From positions 1 to 48,723 of IMG/VR virus record IMGVR_UViG_3300021255_000132: a stretch of 48,723 nucleotides of DNA, one strand, 5' to 3'. The stretch's first letter is position 1. The number at the start of each line of letters is the position of its first letter. Under the pieces are notes generated by a model. It was not told the origin of the DNA. It saw only the letters and a program-made list of their open reading frames with translations, and searched no databases. The position numbers and the translations under genes were made by a program. This DNA comes from a virus. Shown one piece after another: positions 1-48,723 of this stretch.

Positions 1-107
1 TATCATCATTTTATTTATTCTCCTAACCTTCTTTCTTTCACGCCTTAGAAACGTCTCATATTTCTTCCCCAGCAAGCCAATAGCTTTTACTTGCATTCCC
101 CACCTGT
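1..107. repeat. Terminal overlap copy 1 (identical to 48617-48723)
   Basis: Read directly: tatcatcattttatttattctcc...ttgcattccccacctgt occurs at both ends of the window. Confidence 0.95.
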
Positions 108-2643: not shown

Positions 2644-2949
2644 CTATTCCCCCTTGCAATACTTGCAGAACGGCTGCCCATCTTCTCTATATCCACCGAG
2701 ATTATCTGCATCCACACGGCCGCTACACTTACAGCAGAACATCCACCAGCCATTATTAATAAAGGCTTTAGGCGGGATTTTATCGAAATCACCATACTTA
2801 TCCGCCCATGGCACGCGCCTTATCCGAATGTCGGTATATTCCATATCGGTGAGACGTGCCCCTTCTGCCTTGGCTTTATTGGCGTTCTCTGCATAGACAA
2901 TCATTTCTACGCCTTCATCCTCGTCGTACATAAAAGCATACGCTTTCAT
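2644..2949 (-). CDS. Hypothetical protein with a C-terminal CxxC...CxxC motif (101 aa)
   Basis: ATG at 2949 preceded by GGAGGTG. C-terminal CCKCSG...CKYC. Confidence 0.55.
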   Translation of the reverse strand: MKAYAFMYDEDEGVEMIVYAENANKAKAEGARLTDMEYTDIRIRRVPWADKYGDFDKIPPKAFINNGWWMFCCKCSGRVDADNLGGYREDGQPFCKYCKGE

Positions 2950-2954
2950 CTGCA

Positions 2955-3653
2955 TCACCTCCAGCTGCATCTCCTTTTATCCTTAAAACACCATCTATCC
3001 ATGATGTATACCGGGCTGTACCATCTCTGCCATTCGTCCAGACTTAGCGCATCGCCATGAACCACTACTGCTGGGAGTCCATACAAGGCAAAGTGCAGGT
3101 AACTCATACAAACGCAACGATGGTCAATATCTCCAGCATAGATAAGCAGATGTTTTGAAGGGTTCAGCCCAGCCGCCCTCATGGCTTCTGCAAATGCCAG
3201 TATCATCACACCGCCGCCCACTGCAGGTTCGTTTATGGTAATATATCCCTCTTTAGCTATAATCTCCCGTGCTTTGCCTGCGTCAAAAACCATCCTGGCA
3301 GATAGCTCTGCCACGCTCCTGGGCGTGAAGAACTGCCCCACGTTCTTGTTGTAGATTTCCAGCTGCATAAACACTTCGGCGATTATGTCAACGTAACGGC
3401 CCTGCTTGACATATTCATCCATGGCCACAATCATCATACCCAGCATTTCCCCAAACCTTTTCAATTCAGCGGGGTTATATTTGCGCCGTATGGCTTTTAG
3501 CTGTTCTTCGGTCTTATCTTTGTTCAATGTGAACACCTGCACGATTGACATTGCTGCCATCTCCGCAAAGTCCGAAAACACTTCATAGGCATTCCGCCCA
3601 GAGAATGACCTCACTGCCTTTACCAACTCTGCTATTTCCGCGCCCTCTCGCAT
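2955..3653 (-). CDS. N6-adenine DNA methyltransferase-like protein, truncated with no recognisable catalytic motif IV (232 aa)
   Basis: GQFFTPRSV resembles motif X and NEPAVGGG resembles the AdoMet-binding motif I. GDID and HGDALS follow, but the ORF ends 27 aa later without NPPY/F or a target-recognition domain. ATG at 3653 follows an AGGTG RBS. Confidence 0.5.
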   Translation of the reverse strand: MREGAEIAELVKAVRSFSGRNAYEVFSDFAEMAAMSIVQVFTLNKDKTEEQLKAIRRKYNPAELKRFGEMLGMMIVAMDEYVKQGRYVDIIAEVFMQLEIYNKNVGQFFTPRSVAELSARMVFDAGKAREIIAKEGYITINEPAVGGGVMILAFAEAMRAAGLNPSKHLLIYAGDIDHRCVCMSYLHFALYGLPAVVVHGDALSLDEWQRWYSPVYIMDRWCFKDKRRCSWR

Positions 3654-3764
3654 AATGTCACCTGATTTCCCCGACTTTATTCCTCGCCATATCAATACTA
3701 GCTTCTGTATAATAAATAGCCCAACAGCACGCCAATCAGAACAAAAATACAACCTTCCATCGGT

Positions 3765-3953
3765 TTATCTCCTTTCATCATTTTTCCTGTACAGACAATG
3801 CCAAAACCTCGGCTCAAAATATTTGCATTCCGGACAATGCGCCATGTGAACCGCGCCGCCCGTCCAGGGACAGACAACAGCGGTAAATACTAACTGACCA
3901 CAAAAATCGCAACGCTCAATTTCCGGCGTTGTTTTCTTAATCTCCTTCTCCAT
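3765..3953 (-). CDS. Small zinc-ribbon-like protein (62 aa)
   Basis: CDFCGQ...C...HCPEC pattern. Confidence 0.5.
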   Translation of the reverse strand: MEKEIKKTTPEIERCDFCGQLVFTAVVCPWTGGAVHMAHCPECKYFEPRFWHCLYRKNDERR

Positions 3954-4227
3954 ATTCGTTCCTGCTTGTACAGTATGCCATCATCATCCGCATGCTGGCA
4001 TTAATCAGGTGCGGCTCACTTCTATCACCCTTGCGATAAAGATTGATATGCCGCATTGCTCTGGCCAGATGTTCGTCTGTGGGAATTGTCCGCCATGTCT
4101 CCCCTGGATGCTTTACTGCGCCAGCCGTCAGCCCCACAGCGATTTCATCCAGCCACATTGCAGAAATATAACGGTATTCATTGTTTTCGCTGTCCTGCGG
4201 AAATTCTTGGTTTTTCTTCTCGTCCAT
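3937..4227 (-). CDS. DUF5664-like (dATP/dGTP pyrophosphohydrolase N-terminal-like) protein (96 aa)
   Basis: The pattern LDEIAVGLTAGAVKHPGETWR...ARAMRHINLY...PHLINASMRMMMAY resembles the Ga.KYg..NW / RHl / Hla.a signature of that family, recalled from memory. Confidence 0.4.
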   Translation of the reverse strand: MDEKKNQEFPQDSENNEYRYISAMWLDEIAVGLTAGAVKHPGETWRTIPTDEHLARAMRHINLYRKGDRSEPHLINASMRMMMAYCTSRNEYGEGD

Positions 4228-4334
4228 TATTTATGTCTGCCTTTCTCTTTCCATATCCGATAAAAACATATAATCGTTGCCGGCAGGCAGAACAAAAAGC
4301 CTGCCAGTGCCGCCCACAAATTACTCTCCGTCAT
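4227..4334 (-). CDS. Possible 35-aa membrane peptide
   Basis: Hand-translated as MTESNLWAALAGFLFCLPATIICFYRIWKEKGRHK. TAATG overlap with the next gene. Confidence 0.3.
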   Translation of the reverse strand: MTESNLWAALAGFLFCLPATIICFYRIWKEKGRHK

Positions 4335-9516: not shown

Positions 9517-11013
9517 TTAGTCGAACTTTCTGCCCTTTCGCCAGTCGAGTTCTTCGTCATAACGTTTAATTTCTCTCTGCAGGCGCTCACACATTGCCTT
9601 ATCTTCTGGTCTTATAATGTCCAGATGTTCTTCCAACACATTTCGGATATAGCGTACAGCTTTCATCTGCAGTTCGTTTTCTTCCTGGCATTCGGCTTTG
9701 CGTATGGCTTCTTCTTCCTCAGCCTTGGCTCTTGCGGCTTTATCGGCTTCGATGGCTTCCAGCGGGATTTCGTCTATATAGCCGTTATCCTTCAGCACGG
9801 ATGCCTTTGTCGTGCCGGTTTTGGCTACTTCCATGGCTGCCGCCCGCAGGGCTTCTTCTTTGGTGTTGTAGGTATCCTTGAGGAATACCCAGTCTGCTTC
9901 ATCGCCATGCTCTACTACTGTATAGGTCAAGCAATAGCGGCCGCTTTCAGTCTTGTCTGCCACAGCCTTGATGGTGAAATTTATCCAGCTTTTGTAACCG
10001 CCTCGTCCAGTCTGATACGTTTCCTGCCCGTATTCATCGACCTCTGCGACTTCCCATTTCCCGGCATTAAGCTTTATTTTCCGGCCACAGGATTGAGCCA
10101 TACCGCATGCCTCATTGACTTCTCTGCAGGACTCACAGCATTTCAGGCATTGCGTTGACAAATGGCAGGCTTCGCAGGGTTCCAAACTGTCGCGGCCATA
10201 TGTTTCTGCTTTCTGTCGGATGGCGTTCAGCTGGTCTTGCTTGCGGTGTTCTTCGACTTTGGCCATACGTTCTGACCAGCCCGGTTCGTCTTCTCTTTCC
10301 TCATGCTTGACAATTGTTACATGATTGAGAGAGACTGTGCCTTCCTCTTGGAGCTTATTCGCCACTTTCTGCTGGCCTTCCTCAGATAGCTGACTTGCTT
10401 CATAGGCGGCGCTGACTTTCAGCCGCCCGTCTTTAAACGCCTGCTTCAAATCCTCGTTTTGCAGATTTTTGGCTATGGCGTGGTATCTTGCCAGCTGAGT
10501 GGACGACATCTGCAGCATCTTGCTGACTATATCCCTGACGCGCCCTTCTAAGCCCTGCTGTTCTTTCATTCGGTTTAGGATATCCGTCATGCGTTCAGCC
10601 TGCCGCATCTTTTCGGCATCTGTCAGCTGGCGGGCGGTGCTGTTAGTCAACATCAGCATCAAGTCCAGCATGTCTTCGTCATGCTCATTTTCAATCAAGC
10701 AGTTGACCTCAGCGAACTGCTGCATGCTTTTCCCTTTCACCAGCAATTGGCAAGCCGTCCATCGGCGCTCACCGCTGATAATCATATACTTGCCTGTTTC
10801 ATCAGCCGCCCGCACTACGAGGTTATGAAGGACGCCGCCCGCAATTTCGATGGCGTCCGCCAGCTCCTTAATGTTCTCTACACTGTATATGGTCTTGTTC
10901 TGCGGGTCTGGGTAAAGCTCATTGATGTTCAGCCGTTTTAATTCGTATTTCGGCGCTCCTGCTTCGGTCTTGCTCGCTTGATTCATGAGCCCCATCAAGT
11001 TAAATCCTGCCAT
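9517..11013 (-). CDS. parB: ParB/Srx N-terminal-domain protein with a long C-terminal extension (498 aa)
   Basis: The ParB box is visible: LYPDPQNKTIY...IKELADAIEIAGGVLHNLVV...YMIISGERRWTACQLL. The gene lies directly downstream of parA. A mid-protein Cys cluster (CEACHLSTQCLKCCESC) is unusual. Confidence 0.8.
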   Translation of the reverse strand: MAGFNLMGLMNQASKTEAGAPKYELKRLNINELYPDPQNKTIYSVENIKELADAIEIAGGVLHNLVVRAADETGKYMIISGERRWTACQLLVKGKSMQQFAEVNCLIENEHDEDMLDLMLMLTNSTARQLTDAEKMRQAERMTDILNRMKEQQGLEGRVRDIVSKMLQMSSTQLARYHAIAKNLQNEDLKQAFKDGRLKVSAAYEASQLSEEGQQKVANKLQEEGTVSLNHVTIVKHEEREDEPGWSERMAKVEEHRKQDQLNAIRQKAETYGRDSLEPCEACHLSTQCLKCCESCREVNEACGMAQSCGRKIKLNAGKWEVAEVDEYGQETYQTGRGGYKSWINFTIKAVADKTESGRYCLTYTVVEHGDEADWVFLKDTYNTKEEALRAAAMEVAKTGTTKASVLKDNGYIDEIPLEAIEADKAARAKAEEEEAIRKAECQEENELQMKAVRYIRNVLEEHLDIIRPEDKAMCERLQREIKRYDEELDWRKGRKFD

Positions 11014-11016
11014 CGC

Positions 11017-11784
11017 TTATTCCTCCACCATCTTGACCAGTTCAGCCACAAATGCTTTATAATCTTTTGCGGCTCCACACCGTGGTGAATGTACCATTAT
11101 CGGCTCGGCCGTAAACGTTGATTCATCAACTTTATCCGTCCAACGGATGAAGTTATCGAATGTCTTGTATTTTTCAGCCTGCCGCATCCACTCAGCGCCC
11201 TGTTGATTACTGTCATTTCTACGGTAACTCGTGATGAGCGTGCCAAGGAAGTTGAGCTGATGATTGAAGTAGGTTTTAACTGTCTGCATTTGGTTGAGTA
11301 AGCTGTCAATTCCATCGAATGTCCAGCGGTCGATTTTTGCAGGGATAACCAGATAATCCGATGTTGTCAGCGCATTTATGACGCACATGCCAAGACTCGG
11401 AGCGTTGTCTATGATCACGTAGTCGTATTCATCTTTGACCTGGTGCAGCACCTCTTTGAGCCGTACCTGCTGCGGCACCGTTGGGTCTGTCAGTACAGCT
11501 TTTTCAGCTTCCGCCAGTGATAGATTCGCGGCAATAATGTCGATATTCGGCTGAGTTGTGTGCTGGATAACCTGCTCAGCCGTCGCGGTACGTTTGAGTA
11601 CCTCGGTCATGCTGGGCTTGTCGTATCCGTACACGCCGAAGAACTGACTGGTGTTTCCCTGCTGGTCATTATCTACCACCAGTGTGCGCTTTTCATACTC
11701 CGTTGCCAGCACATATGCCGTGTTGATAGTGGTCACGGTCTTGCCCACTCCGCCCTTCAAATTTGCAATCGTTAATACTTTCAT
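11017..11784 (-). CDS. parA: ParA/Soj-family partition ATPase
   Basis: Deviant Walker A at the N-terminus, MKVLTIANLKGGVGKTVTT. Later motifs VIIDNAPSLG and DYLVIPAKIDRW also fit. Confidence 0.9.
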   Translation of the reverse strand: MKVLTIANLKGGVGKTVTTINTAYVLATEYEKRTLVVDNDQQGNTSQFFGVYGYDKPSMTEVLKRTATAEQVIQHTTQPNIDIIAANLSLAEAEKAVLTDPTVPQQVRLKEVLHQVKDEYDYVIIDNAPSLGMCVINALTTSDYLVIPAKIDRWTFDGIDSLLNQMQTVKTYFNHQLNFLGTLITSYRRNDSNQQGAEWMRQAEKYKTFDNFIRWTDKVDESTFTAEPIMVHSPRCGAAKDYKAFVAELVKMVEE

Positions 11785-11821
11785 CGTCTTATTCCTCCTC
11801 AGATTGTCGATGCTACGAGTT

Positions 11822-12382
11822 TTACATAATCAGCATGCTGAACGGATTGTTTTCCGCCTTGCTGACCTGTTGATTTTTGTATTCCAGAAACCGGACTACG
11901 GTATCTGCTTTGATTTCATATGAGGCTAAGTCTTCTGCACTGGCGTATTTATGGCCGTAGCGTTCTTTCATTTCCCGCCATACCTTCCACGGCACCATGA
12001 AATAACTAAGTTCCCAACCTGTACCGATGGCACAACAGACAAACGCTGCCGCCCCTGCCTTGTGGTATCGTTCCAGCATGGCGGCCTGCGTGGGTGTTAC
12101 CGCCGCCTGCTTGATTGCGTCCTTCTGCGTATACTTGGCTTCGAACGCTATTAGCCGCCCGCCTTTAATGCAGCCAATGAAATCAGGCTGCGCTTTCTGG
12201 GTGAACTGCACTTCTGCCCTGGCCCTTGCTCGGTCTAAATTCTTCACGACACGGAACGGCTCGCTTTCCTTGTGCAGTACCAGCTTGCCTTCCTGTTCGT
12301 ACTGCCGCGCCGCCGCCATAATCATTTCTTCGAGAATGCGGCCCTGAGCGTTGTTTACCCGGCTTACGTTGCTTCGGTTCAT
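11822..12382 (-). CDS. RecU-like Holliday junction resolvase (186 aa)
   Basis: RILEEMI...Y...G...KAQPDFIGCIKGGRLIAFEAKYT...TQAAMLERYHKAGAAAFV matches the RecU pattern Dy.G...G..i.FEaK...Q...L...GG.aF as I recall it. Confidence 0.55.
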   Translation of the reverse strand: MNRSNVSRVNNAQGRILEEMIMAAARQYEQEGKLVLHKESEPFRVVKNLDRARARAEVQFTQKAQPDFIGCIKGGRLIAFEAKYTQKDAIKQAAVTPTQAAMLERYHKAGAAAFVCCAIGTGWELSYFMVPWKVWREMKERYGHKYASAEDLASYEIKADTVVRFLEYKNQQVSKAENNPFSMLIM

Positions 12383-12386
12383 CAAA

Positions 12387-12635
12387 TCAGTTCTTCCCTC
12401 CCAGTTTTCTCTGCTTGCATTTCCGAATCAGGAAGGTTCTCCCTGTTCCATGCTTGGCATAGCACCGGAAATAATAGTCAGTCACTTTGATGGACTTGCC
12501 ACACAACCATGGCATACATCCAGCCCATTCACCCATATCACTGCACCACGCAGCATTAAGACATTCATAGCAGCATACCTGCCGCCCTTTTCTTTGGGTC
12601 TTGCACACATTCCCACGGCAATAGTATTTAGTCAC
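12387..12635 (-). CDS. Small Cys-rich protein (82 aa)
   Basis: GTG start with a GTGA overlap on the rep stop and GGGAGG upstream. It contains 9 Cys. Confidence 0.45.
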   Translation of the reverse strand: MTKYYCRGNVCKTQRKGRQVCCYECLNAAWCSDMGEWAGCMPWLCGKSIKVTDYYFRCYAKHGTGRTFLIRKCKQRKLGGKN

Positions 12636-13477
12636 AGGTTTGACCTCCCTTGTGGATTTTGTGGATAATCATCATCACGCTCAAATACTGCATGCTGATA
12701 GTCAAAGTTATCATCCGTATTACCGCTGTAGCTTAATGGCCATACGACGTGATAGCCTTTCGGTGCCTTAATCTCTTTCCGGAAGGAACCCCTCGGCACC
12801 AGTGTCTTGACTTCTTTTGTGCGGACAAGGTTCAGACTGGTGCAAATGCGGCTCCGTTTTGCTTTCAGCTCTGCATCCAGCGCCTTGGTATTGCCGCCCG
12901 CCCGTTTGACCTGCATTTTCTCATTGAGCGTGCTGATTAATGTTTCTTCTTTTGTCATGTAGGCCGCTACTTTCCTGGCGTCCATCGTCCGGGCTTCGTA
13001 CGGCTTGAAGTATGTGTTTCCTAACGCCCATGCATTCGATAAGGCTCTTTTCATCTTCCCAAAATCCACTCCTGGGATTGACGGGAGAAGAATGTGCCCG
13101 TGCAATCGTCCGCGCCCTTCCAAGTTCTCCTGCACAGCGATGTACTTAATGTCCATGCCATGCTCCTCATAGAACTTTCTAAGGCTTCGAATCATCTTCC
13201 CGTATGCTTTCTTGAACTCTGCCACAGATACTTTTTCTGCTAGTGTAAATGCTATCCACCAGTCACCTTCCTTGAAATTGTCCATAATCAGACGTTGGAA
13301 TCTTTCCGTCCGGTGTCTCAGGTTTATTTTCTCCTGCTGCTCGCTAGTAATCTTTCTCTTTGGTCTGCGTCTCTCTCTCGCTGACTCATTTTTGGGCATT
13401 GCTCTCACTGAATGGTACTTGTCCACTACAATAAAACGTTTGTCGTGAGATACCCATTTTTTCTGCATATAAGCCAT
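12632..13477 (-). CDS. HUH-superfamily rolling-circle replication initiator (Rep)-like protein (281 aa)
   Basis: The three RCR motifs appear in order: WWIAFTLA (motif 1), GRLHGHILLP (the HUH motif) and KVAAYMTKEE (catalytic Tyr). ATG with a GGAGAA RBS. Confidence 0.6.
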   Translation of the reverse strand: MAYMQKKWVSHDKRFIVVDKYHSVRAMPKNESARERRRPKRKITSEQQEKINLRHRTERFQRLIMDNFKEGDWWIAFTLAEKVSVAEFKKAYGKMIRSLRKFYEEHGMDIKYIAVQENLEGRGRLHGHILLPSIPGVDFGKMKRALSNAWALGNTYFKPYEARTMDARKVAAYMTKEETLISTLNEKMQVKRAGGNTKALDAELKAKRSRICTSLNLVRTKEVKTLVPRGSFRKEIKAPKGYHVVWPLSYSGNTDDNFDYQHAVFERDDDYPQNPQGRSNL

Positions 13478-13543
13478 GGCTTTTTCTCCGTCTCTTTCTT
13501 ACCCTAAAAATCCTTATTTTCTGCATGTTTATACGGCTTTTTT

Positions 13544-13578
13544 GTCAAGATATTAATTCCTTAATCAAGGGAGTCAAG
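13544..13578 (-). promoter_or_regulatory. Three CTTGA[C/T] motifs upstream of rep (candidate nick/origin core or -35 boxes)
   Basis: On the minus strand: CTTGAC (13578-13573), CTTGAT (13569-13564) and CTTGAC (13549-13544), with ATTAATAT between them. Confidence 0.35.
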
Positions 13579-13592
13579 AGGCGTTTCACCCC

Positions 13593-13621
13593 TTCACTTT
13601 TTCAGCCCTATGTGATACAAT
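13593..13621 (+). promoter_or_regulatory. Plus-strand extended -10 promoter (TTCACT - 17 nt - TGaTACAAT)
   Basis: TG at 13613-13614, TACAAT at 13616-13621, and TTCACT at 13593-13598. Confidence 0.45.
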
Positions 13622-13627
13622 AAATAT

Positions 13628-13689
13628 ATGGTTAATCTCCGTTAACCTGAAATCCTAGAGCCCGTCGCCTAACGGGCTCTTTTTCTTTT
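13628..13689 (+). ncRNA. Candidate ~60-nt small RNA antisense to the rep leader
   Basis: It lies between the plus-strand promoter and the plus-strand intrinsic terminator and holds two hairpins (13630-13647 and 13657-13680). No plus-strand ORF is present. The inference is from structure only. Confidence 0.35.
13657..13689 (+). terminator. Rho-independent terminator, plus-strand polarity
   Basis: A 9-bp stem agagcccgt / acgggctct with loop cgccta, followed by ttttctttt. The minus-strand side lacks a T-tract. Confidence 0.6.
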
Positions 13690-13706
13690 GTCTTTTTCTC
13701 ACGCCG

Positions 13707-14027
13707 TCACACTTTCAGTTCGTTGAACTGGCGTGTCAGCTCTTCACGGCACTTTTCCAGTGCTTTGATGAGTTCCTGACTGACATGTGTGCCCAGCGTT
13801 CCGCTTTTATCCTCGTAGATTTCTTCTTCTACCGGATGGCCTTTGGGGTCAGTAATACAGTCATCAGGGTAATAAATACCCTTCAGCTGCAGACGGCAAC
13901 CGTGGTCACTGCCATCCCCGTAGCAATTCAGAAATCCAATCACTTCATCCAGCTGTTCCAAATCGGCCAAAATATTTTCCGCTTCGGCCACCTTTTCTTT
14001 GATTTCTTCCAGGCGTTCTTCTGTCAT
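13707..14027 (-). CDS. Hypothetical acidic early protein (106 aa)
   Basis: ATG start with an ATGA overlap on the upstream small ORF. Confidence 0.55.
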   Translation of the reverse strand: MTEERLEEIKEKVAEAENILADLEQLDEVIGFLNCYGDGSDHGCRLQLKGIYYPDDCITDPKGHPVEEEIYEDKSGTLGTHVSQELIKALEKCREELTRQFNELKV

Positions 14028-14164
14028 GATGCTTTAGCCTCCTTATCCTCCCTTTCAACTTCGTGTACAATGATTTCCACGTTCTCAATGCCGTCCTGCT
14101 TTGCTTTGATTCTCATCAAAGCCGCCCACACGTTTGCAGGACTGAAGTTTGTGAAATTTTCCAT
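14024..14164 (-). CDS. Small early protein (46 aa)
   Basis: Hand-translated as MENFTNFSPANVWAALMRIKAKQDGIENVEIIVHEVEREDKEAKAS, with a GGAAGGGGAG RBS. Confidence 0.45.
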   Translation of the reverse strand: MENFTNFSPANVWAALMRIKAKQDGIENVEIIVHEVEREDKEAKAS

Positions 14165-14177
14165 GTTCTCCCCTTCC

Positions 14178-14336
14178 TTACGCCGTCTGCTTGTTTTCGT
14201 TCATCTTAACAAGCTGGTTCATCATAGCCGCGCCAACAATAGCGTTCGCAAAAGCCGCTACTTGGTCTGCATCTAGTTTCTCCAGCGCTTCGAGCAATCT
14301 GACTGTCTGCTCGTACTTGCGTTTCATTTCCTCCAT
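14178..14336 (-). CDS. First gene of the early leftward operon (52 aa; occupies the Cro position)
   Basis: Hand-translated as MEEMKRKYEQTVRLLEALEKLDADQVAAFANAIVGAAMMNQLVKMNENKQTA. GGAGGTG RBS, directly downstream of the early promoter. No obvious HTH. Confidence 0.5.
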   Translation of the reverse strand: MEEMKRKYEQTVRLLEALEKLDADQVAAFANAIVGAAMMNQLVKMNENKQTA

Positions 14337-14355
14337 TGCTCTTCACCTCCTCACT

Positions 14356-14449
14356 CTTGCTTTGTGAGTTTATAATATCACTATGTGAGGAATTTTGCAA
14401 GGGGTTATTTTATTTTTTTCTTGCTTTGTGAGTTTTTTTGATGTAAGAT
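14356..14449. promoter_or_regulatory. Lysis/lysogeny switch: divergent promoters plus two 16-bp operator repeats
   Basis: - Minus-strand promoter: TTGCAA (14395-14400), 17 nt, TGaTATTAT (-10 at 14372-14377).
- Plus-strand promoter: TTGCTT (14421-14426), 17 nt, TAAGAT (14444-14449).
- CTTGCTTTGTGAGTTT occurs at 14356-14371 and at 14419-14434. Confidence 0.7.
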
Positions 14450-14470
14450 AATCGTAGGAGGTGACTCACC

Positions 14471-14983
14471 ATGACAATAGGTGAACGTATCAAAGCCGCC
14501 CGCAAGTGCATGGGCATGACGCAGGCTGACTTTGCAGAACGCATTGGCCTTAAGCCGACAGCTGTTCTCATGTACGAAAAAGGCTCTCGAAATGTGACAG
14601 AGCAAAGCATTGCGCTTATCGTGCAGGCGTATAATATAAATGAGGAATGGCTACGTTCTGGCCACGGTGCTATGTTTCAAGAATGCGATGATGCAATCAT
14701 TAGCCAATTAGCAGAACAATATAAGCTTGGCGGCGAGCAAGTTGCTTTAATTAAGAGTTTTCTTTCTCTCACCGACTCACAACGTGATGCCGTTGTAGCT
14801 GCCGTTTGCAACGCTGCAGATGCAGTCAGCGCCGCCCGCAAAGTTGCAGCTGAAAAAGAAAAATCTCAGCGCGAGGAAGCTCATCAGCTTCTCGACATGG
14901 AGCTTGACGCTCAGGAAAAAGGGCAATCAGCCTCCACCTTTGGAAGCTCCGGCACCAGCGTTAACAACGAACAAAATGCATAA
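14471..14983 (+). CDS. XRE-family HTH repressor (cI-like), 170 aa
   Basis: N-terminal HTH: IGERIKAARKCMGMTQADFAERIGLKPTAVLMYEKGSRNVT. AGGAGG RBS. It is transcribed divergently from the early operon. Confidence 0.85.
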   Translation: MTIGERIKAARKCMGMTQADFAERIGLKPTAVLMYEKGSRNVTEQSIALIVQAYNINEEWLRSGHGAMFQECDDAIISQLAEQYKLGGEQVALIKSFLSLTDSQRDAVVAAVCNAADAVSAARKVAAEKEKSQREEAHQLLDMELDAQEKGQSASTFGSSGTSVNNEQNA

Positions 14984-15042
14984 AAAGGCCGCCCTGTTAT
15001 CAAGGCGGCCCTCTTACTATATATATTTTATGCTGCAGAAAA

Positions 15043-15076
15043 GGCCACCTGCTCTTCAACAGCAAGCGGCCTTTTT
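15043..15076 (+). terminator. Terminator after the repressor gene
   Basis: ggccacctgct / agcaagcggcc forms 9 of 11 pairs with a 7-nt loop, followed by ttttt. A run of A precedes the stem. Confidence 0.55.
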
Positions 15077-15190
15077 CTGGATTGTAAGGATATTTTTCGA
15101 AAGGTAATCTGGGGAATTACCTGCCTGATGTTAGAATAAGGCCCCAGCTATCACGCTGGGGTCTTACCTCGTAACACCAAAGCCTTATAG

Positions 15191-15236
15191 GCATGTGGAG
15201 AAACAGCCTATGTTTATTATATATCGCTCCACATGC
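15191..15236. promoter_or_regulatory. 10-bp inverted repeat gcatgtggag-N26-ctccacatgc upstream of the integrase gene
   Basis: Read directly. It ends 39 nt before the integrase ATG and the region between the arms is AT-rich. Confidence 0.4.
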
Positions 15237-15274
15237 TTTGTCTCACAATCAAACATTTTATGGAGGATTTTATA

Positions 15275-16681
15275 ATGACAAAAACAGTAAAACGTGCTGC
15301 CCTTTATATCCGTGTAAGCACCGACGAGCAGGCGCGATACGGATTATCACTTGGAGAACAGCGCCGCGACCTTGAAGATTACGCGCGTCGCAAAGGATAT
15401 ATTGTTGCCGGCATCTATGCTGACGAAGGCACATCCGCCCGCAAGTCCCTGCATCGCAGGAAAGAATTGCAGCGCCTGCTTGCCGATATCCGTGCCGGCA
15501 AGATTGATGTCGTTGTTGTTAAAGACTTGGAACGCTGGATGCGCTCCGTCCGTGACTTTTATAAAGTACAAGACATTCTCGATGAGCATAATGTCGGCTG
15601 GGAGTGTTCCCAGGACAGGTACAACACCACCACTGCCAATGGGAAGATGCAGCTGAATATGCGTCTGGCCATCGCACAGGACGAATCGGATCGGGACAGT
15701 GAGCGCATCCGTTACGTGTTCGAGGGCAAGAGAAAACGCAAAGAAGTCCTGTCTGGCGCAATTCCCAGGGGAATGTCTATTGTCGATAAGCATATCGTAT
15801 TTAACGAAGAAGCTGATATGGTGCGGGCCATATTCAATCATGTCTATAATGGCGGTTCCGTCCGTTCCTGTATCGCTTTGGCCAAAGAAGAATACGGCGT
15901 TGAATTGACTTATAGAACCATTCGCCGTTCGCTTGCCAATCGTGCATATATCGGGGAGCTCCACGGCGAACCAGGCTACATTGAGTCAATGATTCCCCTG
16001 GATGTGTTCAACAGAGTCCAGATTAAGTTGAAAAAATACTGCTCTTCTTTCCGGAACAAATCCACTGGTAGCCGTGTTTATCTTTTTACCGGATTGATTT
16101 CCTGCCCACATTGCGGCTCCACCCTCAGCGGTTATCGTGGGGATAAAAAAGCGGACGGCACTTATCGCACTTACTGGTATCGTTGTGGTCGTGCCAATGG
16201 CAACGCCGGCGTTGGCTGCAATTATACCCGGTGCTTGTACGAGCGGAAAGTGGAATCATTCCTTCTCGATAACATCCAGTCGCTACTATCCAATCACATG
16301 TATCAAATCGAGCAACGCCGCATTGCAAAGCAAAAATTCCGCTCTGAAATGACCGAAGAAAATATCCAGGCAAAGCTGGCGCGCTTGAAAGATTTGTATG
16401 TTGACGGGCTTATCGATAAACCGACGTACCTGCGCGACTATAATAAGTTTCAGCAGCAACTCCTTGAAATAGCTTCTGATGAGGTCATCCCTCTTACCAC
16501 AATTCCGCCCGAAGCCCAAAGCTTTGTTTCATCAGCTGACTTCCGTGAAGTATATCAATCCCTCACGCAGGAAAACAAGCGTGACTTTTGGGCATCCATT
16601 ATCAAACGGATTACATACGAAGATACCCCCGCAACTCATGGCCGTGGGGGTGTATATGACTTCCATGTTGAGTTTTATTAA
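15275..16681 (+). CDS. Large serine recombinase (phage integrase), 468 aa
   Basis: The resolvase-type catalytic domain is present: AALYIRVSTDEQ...GLSLGEQ. A C-terminal zinc-ribbon region follows (CPHCGSTLSGYRG...YWYRCGR...GC), then a coiled coil. ATG at 15275 lies 7 nt after GGAGGA. Confidence 0.9.
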   Translation: MTKTVKRAALYIRVSTDEQARYGLSLGEQRRDLEDYARRKGYIVAGIYADEGTSARKSLHRRKELQRLLADIRAGKIDVVVVKDLERWMRSVRDFYKVQDILDEHNVGWECSQDRYNTTTANGKMQLNMRLAIAQDESDRDSERIRYVFEGKRKRKEVLSGAIPRGMSIVDKHIVFNEEADMVRAIFNHVYNGGSVRSCIALAKEEYGVELTYRTIRRSLANRAYIGELHGEPGYIESMIPLDVFNRVQIKLKKYCSSFRNKSTGSRVYLFTGLISCPHCGSTLSGYRGDKKADGTYRTYWYRCGRANGNAGVGCNYTRCLYERKVESFLLDNIQSLLSNHMYQIEQRRIAKQKFRSEMTEENIQAKLARLKDLYVDGLIDKPTYLRDYNKFQQQLLEIASDEVIPLTTIPPEAQSFVSSADFREVYQSLTQENKRDFWASIIKRITYEDTPATHGRGGVYDFHVEFY

Positions 16682-20262: not shown

Positions 20263-20571
20263 CTAGAATGTTCCGTGCACTATCCAAATAACACCTTCAC
20301 CAATGACCACACCGCCGACGTCAGCCGCCAGGTCTCCCAAATGGTCATGCGTAGCATGTCCCTTGTTATGGTCATAAATTTCCTTAGCCACAAATAAGCC
20401 GCCTAATATGCTCCAGCGCGTTTCCTTTTTCACTCCACATTCAGCCATAGCCAAGTCAAGGCCCGTCGCAACGCCGATGTGCTTTTGCTTATCCGGCGCT
20501 ATTTCCGCATAGCAAAAAGACGGTATCATCATCGATATCGCCATCAGTGCCGCTATTAACTTTTTGTTCAT
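20263..20571 (-). CDS. Secreted or membrane-anchored small protein with a signal peptide (102 aa)
   Basis: MNKKLIAALMAISMMIPSFCYAEI... Its start lies 83 nt inside the 3' end of the RT ORF. Confidence 0.5.
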   Translation of the reverse strand: MNKKLIAALMAISMMIPSFCYAEIAPDKQKHIGVATGLDLAMAECGVKKETRWSILGGLFVAKEIYDHNKGHATHDHLGDLAADVGGVVIGEGVIWIVHGTF

Positions 20572-21655
20572 CTCCCGTCACCCCCTTTCTTTGCAAGCAA
20601 ATTGAGCTCAGGAGCTTTGTCCTGAGCCTATAACTATCGCAGTGTCGCATTTGCCCATTGTATGACGCATAGGTTTTCATGAAGTCCTCCACATTGGCTT
20701 TACCTCTGGCGAATCTTTTTACTATGCCCTTTAGCCTATGCTTCATCTTTAATGCAGTTTTCTTTCTGAGCAATATGTGGTCCCTCCAGATGCGGAAACC
20801 ACAAAAGTCAACTCCCTGCGTTTCTGTCCGTATTGATGTTTTGTTGTTGAGGAGCAAAGCCCGCTCATTGAGCAGGAAGTCATACATAGCATCACGACAT
20901 TCAGCTAAATATTTTTTATCTGTGCTGACAATCGTAATATCATCCATGTACCGCAGATAATACTTTGCTCCCAGTTCGTGCTTAGCAAACTTGTCTGCAC
21001 CGTCAAGATAAAAGTTTGCCAGCATCTGTGATGACAGGTTGCCGATTGGCATACCAACATCATGCAGTCTTTCACCGCAATAATCGTGGTCTCCAATATT
21101 AATTCCGAAATCGTGCTCACTGTTCACTATTATGCCCAGCAGCCACAATAGTTCTTCGTCTTTTATGGTCTGACTGAGCAAATCCATCATTATTGCATGG
21201 TTCACGCGGTAAAAATACTTTGAGATGTCCATTTTGAGTATATACGCCTTGCCAGGCTGTGCCCTTATATACTCCTGCAGTTTGGCTACTGCACTATGAG
21301 GCCCGCCCTTTATTGGTGCGCACTTCATACGGCAGCCAAAGCTGGTATTTATATAGCGTTTCTCTAACAAGGGATTCAGCTGGCGGTAAACCGCCCATTG
21401 AATAATCCTGTCCCTAAATGGCAGCGCCATTATCAAACGCTTCTTCGGATCGTGTACAAAGAATTCTCGATATCGCCCCACTTTATAAGTATGCCAAATC
21501 AGTTCATTCTGTAATTCAATAAGGTTTTCATCCAGATTGGCCGAAAACTCCATAACTTCCGTTCGATATCTTTTGCCCTTTCTGGCTTCCAGATATGACG
21601 CATAAAGGTTTTCGTAATCATAGATTTTCTCAAAGATGTTTCCTATTCGTTTCAA
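20489..21655 (-). CDS. DGR-type reverse transcriptase (388 aa, apparent TTG start)
   Basis: RT motifs are present, including the DGR hallmark PIGNLSSQMLANFYL and the catalytic YMDD (YLRYMDDITIV). The gene lies 226 nt downstream of the TR. Confidence 0.9.
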   Translation of the reverse strand: MKRIGNIFEKIYDYENLYASYLEARKGKRYRTEVMEFSANLDENLIELQNELIWHTYKVGRYREFFVHDPKKRLIMALPFRDRIIQWAVYRQLNPLLEKRYINTSFGCRMKCAPIKGGPHSAVAKLQEYIRAQPGKAYILKMDISKYFYRVNHAIMMDLLSQTIKDEELLWLLGIIVNSEHDFGINIGDHDYCGERLHDVGMPIGNLSSQMLANFYLDGADKFAKHELGAKYYLRYMDDITIVSTDKKYLAECRDAMYDFLLNERALLLNNKTSIRTETQGVDFCGFRIWRDHILLRKKTALKMKHRLKGIVKRFARGKANVEDFMKTYASYNGQMRHCDSYRLRTKLLSSICLQRKGVTGDEQKVNSGTDGDIDDDTVFLLCGNSAG

Positions 21656-21881
21656 TGTATGTTTCTTCCTTACATGTTACATATAAGCCACAATAAATTA
21701 ATCAATCACTGTCACGTTTTTCGCCCGCCTACTCTTTCAAGGAACGCTACTAACCGCGATGCAGTCCTTTTTTGTTTTTGAGACGGTGTATCTTCCCCAC
21801 CGCCTATGGATACATGCTCCTTATTCTTCATGTAACTGGATGCGCTCCCGTAAGATACGCAACTTCTGACAAAATGAAGAT

Positions 21882-21997
21882 TAAGCCACGCGCCCGCCCA
21901 CGTTGTTGTTCGAATTCGAGCGAACATTATTCAGGTTCAAGGCGAAAACGCCCGCGTTGGCACCATTGTTCCAATTGCCGCCGGATAACGGAACGCG
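21882..21997 (-). repeat. DGR template repeat (TR), 116 bp
   Basis: 102 of 116 positions are identical to 22492-22607. It lies in a non-coding stretch between avd and the RT gene and carries 11 AAY triplets in the VR reading frame. Confidence 0.9.
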
Positions 21998-22023
21998 AAT
22001 TTAGCATGTCCCCAAAGTAACCA

Positions 22024-22398
22024 TTATTTTCTGTTGTTTGTCATCATCCTGCCTATTATTCGCCCACATTCATCAGCACATTTTGATGTAATCTCATATC
22101 GCTTAAAGGCCATATACTTGAATTCAACTCCCAGCCGTAAATACTGCCGCAACGTGTCCAGTTTAATATCTGCTTCTTCTAGTGAAGTTTTCTTGATATG
22201 CTTGTCCTTTATCCTGATTACCAGCTCCATAAAATCATTAAAGATTTTCTTAGTATCTGCAGCAAGTCCGTATTTCTCAGATTTTGGATACTGCCTCAAG
22301 CTAATATATAGTTCTTTCATCAGGTCATGAGTTCTTTCCAACAGGTAAAATGGCACCTTACTTGCTGTTAAATGATTCAGGACGGTCTCTTGTTCCAT
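22024..22398 (-). CDS. avd: Accessory variability determinant (Avd)-like four-helix-bundle protein (124 aa)
   Basis: Its size, basic helical sequence (LYISLRQYPKSEKYGLAADTKK...) and position between VR and TR all fit Avd. Confidence 0.75.
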   Translation of the reverse strand: MEQETVLNHLTASKVPFYLLERTHDLMKELYISLRQYPKSEKYGLAADTKKIFNDFMELVIRIKDKHIKKTSLEEADIKLDTLRQYLRLGVEFKYMAFKRYEITSKCADECGRIIGRMMTNNRK

Positions 22399-22433
22399 TC
22401 ATATTCTCCTCTTCTTTCAATATTTGTAATTTA

Positions 22434-22455
22434 GGGGCTTGCTCCCGCAAGCCCC
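22434..22455 (-). promoter_or_regulatory. GC-rich hairpin downstream of VR (DGR homing-associated stem-loop)
   Basis: On the minus strand: GGGGCTTGC-GGGA-GCAAGCCCC, a 9-bp stem with a 4-nt loop, 36 nt after the VR 3' end. Confidence 0.65.
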
Positions 22456-22478
22456 GCCAGATTTTCAGTGTTCAGTGG

Positions 22479-23465
22479 TCAGATTTCAGCGTAAGCCACG
22501 CGCCCGCCCACGTCGCGGTACGAATGCGAGCGAACATCAGCCAGGCGCAAGGCGAAAACGCCCGCGCCGGCACCACGGTTCCAATTGCCGCCGGATAACG
22601 GAACGCGCTCACCTTCATGAACTGCCCAGATATGGTCATCCGTGGTGACATCAGAGCACTTCATAAGCGCCAGCTGTTTAATAGCCTGGTGAGGGGTTAC
22701 TCCAGATGCGGCCGTGATGGAAGAGAACGCAGCATCCGTGTTAGCAGTTGAAGCTGCAGTCTGAATGGTAGTGCCACTCAGATAGTTAGCCGTATCGATA
22801 TAACCTGCTGTGCTGTTCTCGCTGTCAGCCGTATCAAAGTTATTCATGGCTACACCATCTTCGCCTACGACATAGATTTTGCCGTTGATGAGCTTCATGC
22901 CCTGGTTCCACTCCCAGATATTACCGCAAAGGTCATAGATACCAGCTGCAGTACCATCGTGAGACCAGGACACCGGGCCAGAGCCGGTCAGTACGCGACC
23001 ATCACCGCCCATCACGCCATGCTCATACGTTGCATCATGAGCCTTACCCGTTGCAGTATTGCCACGCGGCACATAGCCCGACTTCGCACAAAGCAGTGCA
23101 AGGCCAGCCTGTTCAGCGCGGGATAACAGATGCCAGCCCTTCCCCTTTGCGCTGCATGCATTACGCGTATTATCAAAGGTCGTGTAGACTGTCGGGTCTT
23201 CCATCGGCATGGAGCAAGCGCGCCCATTGACGATTTTTGCCTGATATTTACCAATCCAAACTTCCGGCAGCTCCTTGCCATGATAGAGGAACATCGGATG
23301 CACGCCAGTGCCAGCACCGGCATCGCTGGTTACATCCTCAATGTTGAATTTCGGAATGCAGACAAGCACAGACGGATAACCTTTGTCGTCATATCTGACA
23401 GTATTGCGTCCACCGGATGCAGCCTCAACAGCCTGACGGTACGGGTCTTTAATCGTGAAATACAT
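22479..23465 (-). CDS. DGR target: FGE/C-type-lectin-fold receptor-binding (tail fibre tip) protein, 328 aa
   Basis: Formylglycine-generating-enzyme-like signatures are present: GWHLLSRAEQAGLALL and DLCGNIWEWNQG. The C-terminal GGNWN.GA.AGVFAL scaffold is typical of DGR variable proteins. The gene is last in the tail-fibre module. Confidence 0.8.
   Translation of the reverse strand: MYFTIKDPYRQAVEAASGGRNTVRYDDKGYPSVLVCIPKFNIEDVTSDAGAGTGVHPMFLYHGKELPEVWIGKYQAKIVNGRACSMPMEDPTVYTTFDNTRNACSAKGKGWHLLSRAEQAGLALLCAKSGYVPRGNTATGKAHDATYEHGVMGGDGRVLTGSGPVSWSHDGTAAGIYDLCGNIWEWNQGMKLINGKIYVVGEDGVAMNNFDTADSENSTAGYIDTANYLSGTTIQTAASTANTDAAFSSITAASGVTPHQAIKQLALMKCSDVTTDDHIWAVHEGERVPLSGGNWNRGAGAGVFALRLADVRSHSYRDVGGRVAYAEI
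22492..22607 (-). repeat. DGR variable repeat (VR), 116 bp, codons 287-325 of the target gene
   Basis: All 14 differences from the TR fall at TR coding-strand adenines. The VR ends 10 nt before the stop codon. Confidence 0.9.
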
Positions 23466-48511: not shown

Positions 48512-48712
48512 TTATATAGATACTTCATTAATCATTTTCAGCGCTTCATCAGCATTACATCCAAATAATTTCATTGCGAGCCGATCAGCCTCCTCCTCAG
48601 TCAATGGTCTAGGCACTATCATCATTTTATTTATTCTCCTAACCTTCTTTCTTTCACGCCTTAGAAACGTCTCATATTTCTTCCCCAGCAAGCCAATAGC
48701 TTTTACTTGCAT
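48512..48712 (-). CDS. Hypothetical small protein (66 aa); the ORF stays open across the circular junction
   Basis: The frame stays open upstream into the sequence equivalent to positions 97-190. An alternative ATG lies at the equivalent of position 114, after GGAGGA. Confidence 0.45.
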   Translation of the reverse strand: MQVKAIGLLGKKYETFLRRERKKVRRINKMMIVPRPLTEEEADRLAMKLFGCNADEALKMINEVSI

Positions 48713-48723
48713 TCCCCACCTGT
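48617..48723. repeat. Terminal overlap copy 2 (identical to 1-107)
   Basis: Read directly. This is most simply the end overlap of a circular assembly. Confidence 0.95.

What the first reader, a model, noticed from the sequence alone, without database searches (positions are those of the whole stretch)
20489..23465. Complete diversity-generating retroelement (target-VR, hairpin, avd, TR, RT) at the end of the tail-fibre module
On the minus strand the order is:
- 328-aa target gene (23465->22479) whose last ~40 codons are a 116-bp VR (22607->22492)
- GC hairpin (22455->22434)
- 124-aa Avd-like four-helix-bundle ORF (22398->22024)
- 116-bp TR (21997->21882), starting 27 nt after the avd stop
- 226-nt spacer
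- 388-aa reverse transcriptase (21655->20489) carrying the DGR-type PIGNLSSQ motif and YMDD

My base-by-base alignment of TR and VR gives 102 of 116 identities. All 14 mismatches lie at TR positions that are A on the coding strand. That is 14 of 24 TR adenines changed and 0 of 92 non-adenine positions changed, which is the signature of adenine-specific mutagenic retrohoming. The gene order matches Bordetella phage BPP-1 (mtd-avd-TR-brt).

The element sits in a temperate phage that also has plasmid-like partition and replication genes, so tropism switching could operate from a stably maintained element.
Basis: partly seen in the sequence, partly recalled or inferred. Interest (0 to 1): 0.85.

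Follow-up and report, generated by a model that had tools for sequence, protein, structure and literature searches.

The report
Active phage diversity-generating retroelement (DGR)
This is a complete and demonstrably active diversity-generating retroelement that rewrites 11 codons of a tail-associated binding protein in a rumen (Selenomonas-type) phage; it is a textbook example of a known system, not a new one.

Summary
TR (21997->21882) and VR (22607->22492) are 116 nt long and differ at 14 positions. All 14 are TR adenines (chance P about 5e-12).

All parts of a canonical DGR are present:
- a target gene homologous to the solved Thermus aquaticus DGR variable protein TaqVP;
- a 9-bp GC hairpin with a GGGA (GRNA) loop after VR;
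- an Avd that passes the NCBIfam equivalog cut-off;
- a reverse transcriptase (RT) whose best solved relative is the BPP-1 enzyme bRT, with every key bRT residue conserved.

New evidence shows activity. In public contigs 96-100% identical to the window, 10 of 11 TR copies are identical to the window's TR. All eight VR copies (three of them partial) differ from one another. 100 of 167 adenine-templated cells are changed, against 2 of 640 other cells. One contig is 99.5% identical over 4.4 kb and 20 of its roughly 21 differences lie in VR. In the 90%-identity protein cluster (91 members), the hypervariable columns are exactly the 11 AAY codons of TR.

The TR-RT spacer carries covariation-supported RNA helices laid out as in the BPP-1 RNP, and belongs (divergently) to Rfam RT-14.

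Verdict: new member of a known kind. The plasmid-maintenance idea is untested.

The parts
22479..23465 (-). DGR target (variable protein) gene, 328 aa. It is an FGE-type C-type-lectin-fold protein and the last gene of the baseplate/tail-fibre module.
   Evidence: ORF. PDB 5VF4 (TaqVP, T. aquaticus DGR variable protein) E 2.5e-59 over residues 1-215 and 244-325. phrog_2889 E 4e-105 and phrog_5302 'tail protein'. Homologues in the DGR phages BalMu-1, FP_Lagaffe, VHML and VP585.
22492..22607 (-). Variable repeat (VR), 116 nt, codons 287-325 of the target. The mutable part is 22596->22513.
   Evidence: 14 of 14 mismatches to TR are at TR adenines. Eight different VR versions occur in near-identical contigs. 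The hypervariable protein columns are 294, 296, 297, 300, 307, 309, 310, 314, 316, 317 and 318.
22495..22512 (-). GC-rich, never-varying 3' end of VR (CGTGGGCGGGCGCGTGGC). It is identical in TR and sits in the position of the (GC)-rich part of the BPP-1 IMH.
   Evidence: Sequence. Invariant in all 8 VR and 11 TR copies. The function is inferred by position only.
22434..22455 (-). DNA hairpin/cruciform downstream of VR: 9-bp GC-rich stem with 4-nt loop GGGA, starting 36 nt after VR.
   Evidence: Fold; no T-run follows, so it is not terminator-like. It fits the published rule of 7-10 bp GC-rich stems with GRNA loops (PMC3240598). Relatives carry equivalent hairpins with different stem sequences and GATA, GAGA or GTGA loops.
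22024..22398 (-). avd, accessory variability determinant, 124 aa.
   Evidence: Pfam bAvd 70.6 bits (cut-off 40). NCBIfam DivGenRetAVD equivalog 85.8 bits (cut-off 80).
22003..22013 (-). Upstream strand (GGGGACATGCT) of a long-range RNA duplex with the spacer. It is the counterpart of the avd:Sp 'cPRT Stop' duplex of BPP-1.
   Evidence: RNAduplex finds an 11-13-bp duplex at the same place in all 9 relatives, with different sequences. The cognate partner ranks first in 7 of 9. It is also recovered in the MFE fold of the whole RNA.
21882..21997 (-). Template repeat (TR), 116 nt, non-coding, with 24 A of which 22 lie in 11 AAY codons.
   Evidence: It is identical in 10 of 11 related contigs, and the 11th differs at two non-A positions. 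No gene is called here in public gene sets.
21725..21881 (-). Structured spacer RNA downstream of TR, a divergent Rfam RT-14 class RNA. Parts: template strand 21880->21874 paired with primer strand 21831->21825; Avd-binding-like stem-loop 21861->21841 with UACG tetraloop; stop-duplex strand 21818->21808; hairpin 21804->21782; A-run 21780->21766.
   Evidence: RF02921 RT-14 scores 29.2 bits over the full-length model, below the 48.1 cut-off. Orthologous spacers of relatives and of phage BalMu-1 score 57-80 bits. Covariation: 85.5% of cells are paired against 36-52% in slid controls, 11 of 13 pairs have compensatory changes, and 0 of 500 shuffles reach that.
20489..21655 (-). DGR reverse transcriptase, 388 aa, TTG start.
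   Evidence: Pfam RVT_1. PDB 8ub7 bRT E 8e-42, 34% identity. The counterparts of bRT K29, F66, R74, I76, D138, I181, G182, Q187 and Y213-M-D-D216 are all conserved. phrog_1423 E 3e-125. All RT relatives retrieved with a detectable repeat pair carry A-biased TR/VR pairs.

Best explanation
This is a canonical, currently or recently active phage DGR.

Proposed mechanism:
1. A transcript spanning the 3' flank of avd, TR and the ~160-nt structured spacer folds so that the spacer pairs with the sequence just after TR (template:primer duplex) and with the sequence just before TR (stop duplex). A UACG-capped stem-loop binds Avd.
2. The RT-Avd complex cis-primes from a spacer adenosine near 21825. It copies TR into cDNA, misincorporating only opposite adenines.
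3. The cDNA replaces VR at the 3' end of the target gene. It is guided by the shared GC-rich 3' end and by the GRNA-loop hairpin 36 nt downstream.
4. Because 22 of the 24 TR adenines lie in 11 AAY codons, each of 11 residues on the C-type-lectin binding face can become any of 15 amino acids without creating a stop codon. That allows about 9e12 proteins.
5. The target is the last gene of the baseplate/tail-fibre module, so the likely outcome is switching of receptor specificity (tropism).

Shown here:
- the repeat anatomy;
- family membership of Avd, the RT and the target;
- conserved RNA helices;
- A-restricted VR diversification with an invariant TR across natural genomes.

Inferred:
- the priming nucleotide;
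- the retrohoming route;
- virion location and receptor binding of the target.
For: - Repeat: 116 nt, 14 of 14 mismatches at TR adenines, P 4.8e-12.
- Population evidence: 10 of 11 TR copies are identical, and all 8 VRs (3 partial) differ. 100 of 167 A cells are changed against 2 of 640 non-A cells (Fisher 2e-79).
- L023 is 99.5% identical to the window over 4,438 nt, and 20 of its ~21 differences are in VR.
- In L001, VR diverges 13.8% while TR diverges 0% and the flanks 0-6%.
- The target's 90% cluster has 91 members against 26 for Avd. Its hypervariable columns coincide with the 11 AAY codons.
- Proteins: Avd passes the equivalog cut-off. The RT is closest to bRT with all key residues conserved. 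The target is homologous to TaqVP.
- Hairpin with GRNA loop, conserved in kind among relatives.
- RNA helices with covariation, matching the BPP-1 RNP layout. RT-14 hits in the relatives' spacers.
- Context: baseplate J-like and gpI-like genes upstream, holin-region ORFs and an amidase downstream.
Against: - No experiment or read-level data exist. Activity is inferred from differences between assemblies of different samples.
- Two non-A VR differences exist (T50G in L001, T11G in L023).
- The window's spacer scores below the RT-14 gathering cut-off (29.2 against 48.1). It has a ~21-nt insertion and several non-standard pairs in the 3' stem.
- The whole-RNA fold is no more stable than shuffles (z = -0.25).
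- The hairpin lies 36 nt from VR, just outside the published 4-34 bp range.
- The 550-aa and 149-aa neighbours have no informative matches, so the virion role of the target rests on gene position and on a PHROG 'tail protein' hit.
Confidence: 0.93

Rival explanations
1. The DGR is real but the target is not a virion receptor-binding protein. On this reading it diversifies a protein with another role, for example one expressed from the prophage on the host surface or a non-structural ligand-binding protein.
For: There is no direct evidence of virion incorporation. The best PHROG match (phrog_2889) has no assigned function. TaqVP-type proteins are single-domain monomers without the trimerising domains of Mtd. 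The 550-aa and 149-aa neighbours are unannotatable.
Against: The gene directly follows the baseplate J-like and gpI-like genes and two further ORFs, on the same strand, and precedes the lysis cassette. It has a C-terminal match to phrog_5302 'tail protein'. Homologues in cultured phages are annotated as antireceptor or Mtd-like and occupy the same slot.
Confidence: 0.1
2. The element is a relic DGR. On this reading it diversified VR in the past but is now inactive in this genome.
For: A single assembled sequence cannot show ongoing activity. The spacer RNA scores poorly against RT-14.
Against: All catalytic and A-mutagenesis-related RT residues are intact. Avd, TR and the hairpin are intact. 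Non-A positions of VR are kept identical to TR even though flanking DNA diverges 2-6% between the same genomes. A genome 99.5% identical already carries a completely different VR.
Confidence: 0.04
3. The repeat is an ordinary duplication whose copies diverged by point mutation and selection, next to an unrelated retron, group II intron or defence RT.
For: None beyond generic RVT_1 membership and sub-threshold hits to group II, retron and DRT models.
Against: Restriction to adenines has P 4.8e-12 in the window and 2e-79 across eight VRs. RT scores are far below every rival family cut-off (group II 115 against 300; retron 43 against 235; Drt3a 42 against 200). No group II or retron RNA is found by Rfam. 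Avd is present.
Confidence: 0.01

Closest known systems
Bordetella phage BPP-1 DGR (mtd-avd-TR-brt), the prototype
   Same: - Same gene order.
- RT is 34% identical to bRT, with K29, F66, R74, I76, D138, I181, G182, Q187 and YMDD conserved.
- Avd family member.
- A-only TR/VR differences.
- GC-rich shared 3' end, followed by a GC hairpin with GRNA loop.
- The spacer RNA has the same order of elements: Avd-binding tetraloop stem, template:primer duplex, stop duplex with the sequence upstream of TR, hairpin, then adenosines.
   Different: - The target is a 328-aa single-domain TaqVP-like protein, not the trimeric Mtd.
- TR is 116 nt against 134 nt.
- The spacer belongs to Rfam RT-14, whereas the BPP-1 spacer was assigned to RT-10.
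- The upstream duplex strand lies in the avd-TR intergenic gap, not inside avd.
- The host is a Selenomonas-type Bacillota bacterium and the phage is a P2-like contractile-tail type.
Thermus aquaticus prophage DGR variable protein TaqVP (PDB 5VF4)
   Same: It is the closest solved homologue of the target (E 2.5e-59). It has the FGE-type CLec fold with a C-terminal VR, and belongs to a prophage DGR with the same cassette order.
   Different: TaqVP is 385 aa with longer inserts, and the window protein lacks about 55 residues in the insert region. The hosts are from different phyla.
Bacillus phage BalMu-1 DGR cassette, the closest cultured phage; also Clostridium phage Saumur, Faecalibacterium phage FP_Lagaffe and Vibrio phages VHML and VP585
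   Same: In BalMu-1 the RT is 51% and the target 39% identical. The order is target - Avd - (TR) - RT - holin - endolysin at the end of the tail module. An RT-14 RNA lies between TR and the RT.
   Different: There is no nucleotide-level similarity. The window phage has no close relative among 50,697 deposited phage records.
Rfam RF02921 RT-14 RNA (Weinberg et al. 2017, one of 19 'RT' motifs of unassigned role)
   Same: The match covers the full model, in the orthologous position immediately 3' of TR. Relatives pass the cut-off.
   Different: The window copy scores 29.2 bits against the 48.1 cut-off, so it is not a member by Rfam's own criterion. It has an insertion in the 3' stem-loop.

Membership tests
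Diversity-generating retroelement (DGR) | TR/VR imperfect repeat whose differences are confined to TR adenines | tested here: met
   14 of 14 mismatches at A, P 4.8e-12. 100 of 102 differences at A across eight VRs.
Diversity-generating retroelement (DGR) | RT of the DGR clade: closest to bRT, motif-4 IGxxxSQ, intact YMDD | tested here: met
   bRT (8ub7) E 8e-42 against 1.6e-16 for the next class. PIGNLSSQ and YMDD are present, and the bRT contact residues K29, F66, R74, I76, I181, G182 and Q187 are conserved. No full RT phylogeny was built.
Diversity-generating retroelement (DGR) | Accessory variability determinant (Avd) adjacent to TR | tested here: met
   NCBIfam DivGenRetAVD equivalog 85.8 against cut-off 80. 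Pfam bAvd 70.6 against 40.
Diversity-generating retroelement (DGR) | VR at the 3' end of a target ORF with a CLec (or Ig) scaffold; TR adenines concentrated in AAY codons | tested here: met
   VR covers codons 287-325 of 328. Homology to TaqVP. 22 of 24 A lie in 11 AAY codons. Pfam FGE-sulfatase alone is below its cut-off (16.4 against 23.3).
Diversity-generating retroelement (DGR) | Target-site signals: GC-rich IMH-like 3' end of VR and a downstream GC hairpin with 4-nt GRNA loop | tested here: met
   9-bp stem with GGGA loop, starting 36 nt after VR. Rule taken from PMC3240598. Relatives conserve the structure but not the sequence. The functional role was not tested.
Diversity-generating retroelement (DGR) | Structured RNA around TR (Avd-binding stem-loop, template:primer duplex, stop duplex) | tested here: met
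   Covariation: 11 of 13 pairs compensatory, 0 of 500 shuffles reach it. The long-range duplex is cognate-specific in 7 of 9. The layout is as in the BPP-1 RNP.
Diversity-generating retroelement (DGR) | Diversification in nature: VR varies at A-templated sites while TR stays constant | tested here: met
Diversity-generating retroelement (DGR) | RT-dependent mutagenic retrohoming through an RNA intermediate | not testable with these tools
   This needs cDNA detection and an RT-dead control.
Group II intron RT/maturase | Passes TIGR04416; flanked by intron RNA domains | tested here: not met
   115 bits against cut-off 300. No group II RNA in Rfam at gathering or at E<=1.
Retron, DRT and Abi reverse transcriptases | Pass the NCBIfam retron, Drt or AbiA models; msr/msd RNA for retrons | tested here: not met
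   Retron_St85 43 against 235; Drt3a 42 against 200; Drt2 40.5 against 390; Drt5 26 against 550; AbiA 15 against 250. No retron RNA was found.
Rfam RT-14 RNA (RF02921) | Score at or above the gathering cut-off of 48.1 bits | tested here: not met
   The window scores 29.2 bits, although over the full length and in the orthologous position. Relatives score 57-80 bits. It works like an RT-14 RNA but is a divergent copy.
Phage-plasmid | Phage structural genes together with plasmid replication/partition genes, and episomal maintenance | tested here: inconclusive
   ParA, ParB, a Rep-like protein and a serine recombinase are present. The sequence is a 48,616-bp circle. No plasmid relative was found. 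A related RT lies in a 177-kb Selenomonas ruminantium contig, which suggests integration there.

The most novel reading that the evidence does not exclude
The phage could persist as a ParAB-partitioned circular episome (a phage-plasmid) in a Selenomonas-type host. In that case the DGR would diversify the receptor-binding protein during long-term carriage rather than only during lytic growth.

Separately, the RT-14 RNA motif, whose role has been unassigned since 2017, would be the cis-priming scaffold RNA of this Bacillota-phage DGR clade. The window would carry a divergent version with an expanded 3' stem-loop.
Probability: 0.15. Interest if true: 0.4.

Novelty: new member of a known kind. Interest (0 to 1): 0.3.

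Why it matters
This is an unusually clean natural example of DGR action. Near-identical phage genomes from different metagenomes carry the same TR and entirely different VRs. One genome pair differs almost only in VR.

It adds a rumen Selenomonas-type phage lineage with no close deposited relative to the list of DGR phages. It gives coordinates for every cis element.

It also links the Rfam RT-14 motif to the DGR spacer RNA of a whole clade. The helices follow the cis-priming and stop architecture solved for BPP-1, which supports the view that this mechanism is general.

It does not change what is known about how DGRs work.

Tried and rejected
- Megablast of the cassette and of both halves of the window against 50,697 phage records gave one match only, an 85%-identical 1.6-kb stretch to the Selenomonas phage M1 int/attP record. 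Megablast against 72,556 plasmids gave nothing.
- Rfam at gathering thresholds found nothing in the window.
- Pfam FGE-sulfatase on the target is below its cut-off. NCBIfam has no model that matches the target.
- PDB, Pfam and PHROG searches of the 550-aa ORF gave nothing. The 149-aa ORF gave only a PHROG family of unknown function, and ORF 20263-20571 gave nothing.
- A search for a second, remote VR in the window found none.
- The whole-transcript MFE is no better than shuffles (z = -0.25), so the structural claims rest on covariation and not on energy.
- RNAalifold proposed a local GGAG/CUCC hairpin at spacer positions 62-74. I rejected it in favour of the long-range duplex with the sequence upstream of TR, because that duplex is longer and covaries in all nine relatives.
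- The group II, retron, DRT and Abi readings of the RT were rejected on curated cut-offs.
- I did not run the expensive protein-database searches or a structure prediction, because a solved homologue at E 2.5e-59 already fixes the fold.


Full report
**1. The observation.**
On the minus strand, TR (21997->21882) and VR (22607->22492) align without gaps over 116 nt. They have 14 mismatches, and every one is at a TR adenine: 14 of 24 A changed and 0 of 92 other bases changed. The repeat finder returns this pair as its top family. The chance that 14 mismatches all fall on the 24 A positions is 4.8e-12. A TR pattern with every A replaced by N matches only these two places in the window, against none expected in shuffles, so there is one target. 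All 14 changes are at codon positions 1 or 2 of the target frame. Of the 24 TR adenines, 22 lie in 11 AAY (Asn) codons. NNY codons encode 15 amino acids and no stop, so about 8.7e12 proteins are reachable.

**2. The proteins.**
- Avd: the 124-aa ORF passes Pfam bAvd (70.6 bits, cut-off 40) and the NCBIfam equivalog DivGenRetAVD (85.8 bits, cut-off 80).
- RT: the 388-aa ORF is an RVT_1 protein. Its best solved relative by far is the BPP-1 DGR enzyme bRT (8ub7, E 8e-42, 34% identity). Group II RTs follow at 1.6e-16.
- In that alignment, the counterparts of bRT K29, F66, R74, I76, D138, I181, G182, Q187 and Y213-M-D-D216 are all identical. These are the residues that Handa et al. describe as contacting the template base and incoming nucleotide, plus the catalytic aspartates.
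- The RT fails the curated cut-offs of the rival families: group II 115 against 300, retron 43 against 235, Drt3a 42 against 200, Drt2, Drt5 and AbiA.
- Target: the 328-aa protein matches PDB 5VF4 at E 2.5e-59. That entry is TaqVP, the variable protein of a Thermus aquaticus prophage DGR. It has an FGE-type C-type-lectin fold with a C-terminal VR.

**3. Activity in nature.**
I retrieved public contigs that are 96-100% identical to this region. They came from a TR pattern search, from the RT and from the exact Avd sequence.
- Of 11 TR copies, 10 are identical to the window's TR. The 11th differs at two non-A positions.
- Eight VR copies (three partial) are all different.
- Pooled, 100 of 167 adenine-templated cells differ from TR, against 2 of 640 other cells (Fisher 2e-79). 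The changes are A->G 54, A->C 24 and A->T 22. Every A from TR position 12 to 95 is hit, and A116 is never hit.
- Against L001, VR is 13.8% divergent, TR 0%, the VR-avd gap 0% and the neighbouring genes 0.8-5.8%.
- L023 is 99.5% identical to the window over 4,438 nt, and 20 of its roughly 21 differences lie inside VR.
- The window's target protein sits in a 90%-identity cluster of 91 distinct sequences, against 26 for Avd. Among 14 full-length members, the columns with 6-10 residue types are 294, 296, 297, 300, 307, 309, 310, 314, 316, 317 and 318. These are exactly the 11 AAY codons of TR.
- Non-A positions of VR stay identical to TR although the surrounding DNA diverges by several percent. 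This is what repeated overwriting by TR-derived cDNA predicts (inference).
- Of the more distant RT relatives (31-63% identity), every one in which a repeat pair was detected (all but L005, L013 and L015) has an A-biased TR/VR pair in the same position relative to the RT.

**4. Cis elements on the DNA.**
VR and TR share an invariant GC-rich 3' end (CGTGGGCGGGCGCGTGGC, VR copy 22512->22495) and diverge after GGCTTA. A 9-bp GC-rich stem with loop GGGA starts 36 nt after VR (22455->22434). No T-run follows, so it is not terminator-like. Guo et al. showed for BPP-1 that such a hairpin is required for retrohoming. They reported 7-10-bp GC-rich stems and GRNA loops 4-34 bp after VR in phage DGRs. 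Relatives carry hairpins of the same kind with different stem sequences and GATA, GAGA or GTGA loops.

**5. The RNA.**
I aligned the TR-RT spacers of nine relatives. This gave two helices with strong covariation.
- One helix is a stem capped by UACG or a similar tetraloop (window 21861->21841).
- The other encloses it. It pairs the 7 nt that follow TR (21880->21874) with 21831->21825.
- On my named structure, 85.5% of cells pair against 36-52% when partners are slid. Eleven of 13 pairs show compensatory changes, and 0 of 500 shuffles reach that.
- In addition, the 11 nt just upstream of TR (22013->22003) pair with spacer 21818->21808. The same long-range duplex of 11-13 bp, with a different sequence each time, exists in all nine elements. 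The cognate partner is the best partner in 7 of 9.
- A hairpin and an A-run follow (21804->21766). The unconstrained MFE fold recovers all of these helices.

This is the order of elements in the cryo-EM structure of the BPP-1 RNP: Avd-binding tetraloop stem, TR:Sp template:primer duplex ending at the priming adenosine, avd:Sp 'cPRT Stop' duplex, then a short stem-loop and adenosines. By analogy, the priming nucleotide is the A near 21825 and the first templated base is at about TR position 117/116. This is an inference.

Rfam's RT-14 model (RF02921) matches the spacers of six relatives and of Bacillus phage BalMu-1 above its cut-off (57-80 bits). It matches the window's spacer over its full length at only 29.2 bits, below the 48.1 cut-off. 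The window has a ~21-nt insertion in the 3' stem-loop. Weinberg et al. assigned only RT-10 to a DGR (BPP-1) and left the other RT motifs open. Here RT-14 is the spacer RNA of this DGR clade.

**6. Context.**
- Upstream on the same strand lie a baseplate J-like gene, a P2 gpI-like gene, a 550-aa ORF and a 149-aa ORF. Downstream lie a small signal-peptide-like ORF, holin-region ORFs and an amidase endolysin.
- BalMu-1, the closest cultured phage (RT 51%, target 39%), has the same layout.
- The likely host is a Selenomonas-type bacterium. A 63%-identical RT lies in Selenomonas ruminantium S137, and window 2652-4286 is 85% identical to the Selenomonas phage M1 int/attP record.
- The window is a 48,616-bp circle with a 107-nt overlap.
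- ParA, ParB, a Rep-like protein, RecU and a serine recombinase are present, but no plasmid relative was found. The phage-plasmid idea therefore stays open.

**7. Verdict.**
This is a canonical, active phage DGR of the BPP-1/TaqVP type in a previously undeposited rumen phage lineage. It is a new member of a known kind. Interest is modest. Its value lies in the clean population-level evidence and in tying RT-14 to DGR cis-priming RNA.

Noticed in passing
window 1-107 and 48617-48723: The window is circular: the first 107 nt repeat exactly at the end, giving a unit length of 48,616 bp. The public contig ENA ERZ12302814 NODE_944 (48,671 nt = unit + 55) is the same circle opened inside VR at 22512.
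   Followed up: partly
L014, L024, L026, L028, L029, L030 (contig ends at window 22511-22575): Six of the public contigs that carry this element begin inside VR. This suggests that assemblers break there, either because VR is heterogeneous within samples or because of the TR/VR repeat.
   Followed up: no
window 21725-21881 (-); L003, L006-L009, L011, L031: Rfam RT-14 RNA (a motif of unassigned role) is the TR-RT spacer of this DGR clade, including Bacillus phage BalMu-1. The window copy is divergent (29 bits) and has a ~21-nt insertion in the 3' stem-loop.
   Followed up: partly
window 20489-20600 and 20263-20571 (-): The RT has a ~35-residue acidic C-terminal tail with no counterpart in bRT. 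The tail overlaps by 83 nt a 102-aa ORF with a signal-peptide-like N-terminus and no family match. The RT also has an ~18-residue insertion before PIGNLSSQ relative to bRT.
   Followed up: no
window 9517-16681: There is a partition/replication/recombination block: ParB-like 9517-11013, ParA 11017-11784, RecU 11822-12385, Rep_ORF2-G2P-like 12632-13477, an HTH repressor-like gene 14471-14983 (+) and a large serine recombinase 15233-16681 (+). It has no plasmid relative at the nucleotide level.
   Followed up: partly
window 2652-4286: This stretch is 85% identical to the Selenomonas phage M1 record annotated as integrase plus attP. It is the only nucleotide match to any deposited phage. The ORF at 2955-3752 nevertheless gives a weak N6-methylase hit.
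   Followed up: no
L003 9437-9502; L008 9500-9867: A type II hammerhead ribozyme lies about 3.3 kb downstream of the RT gene of the DGR in the Selenomonas ruminantium-type prophage (L003). A tmRNA gene and a tRNA flank the related element in L008, and may be its attachment site.
   Followed up: no
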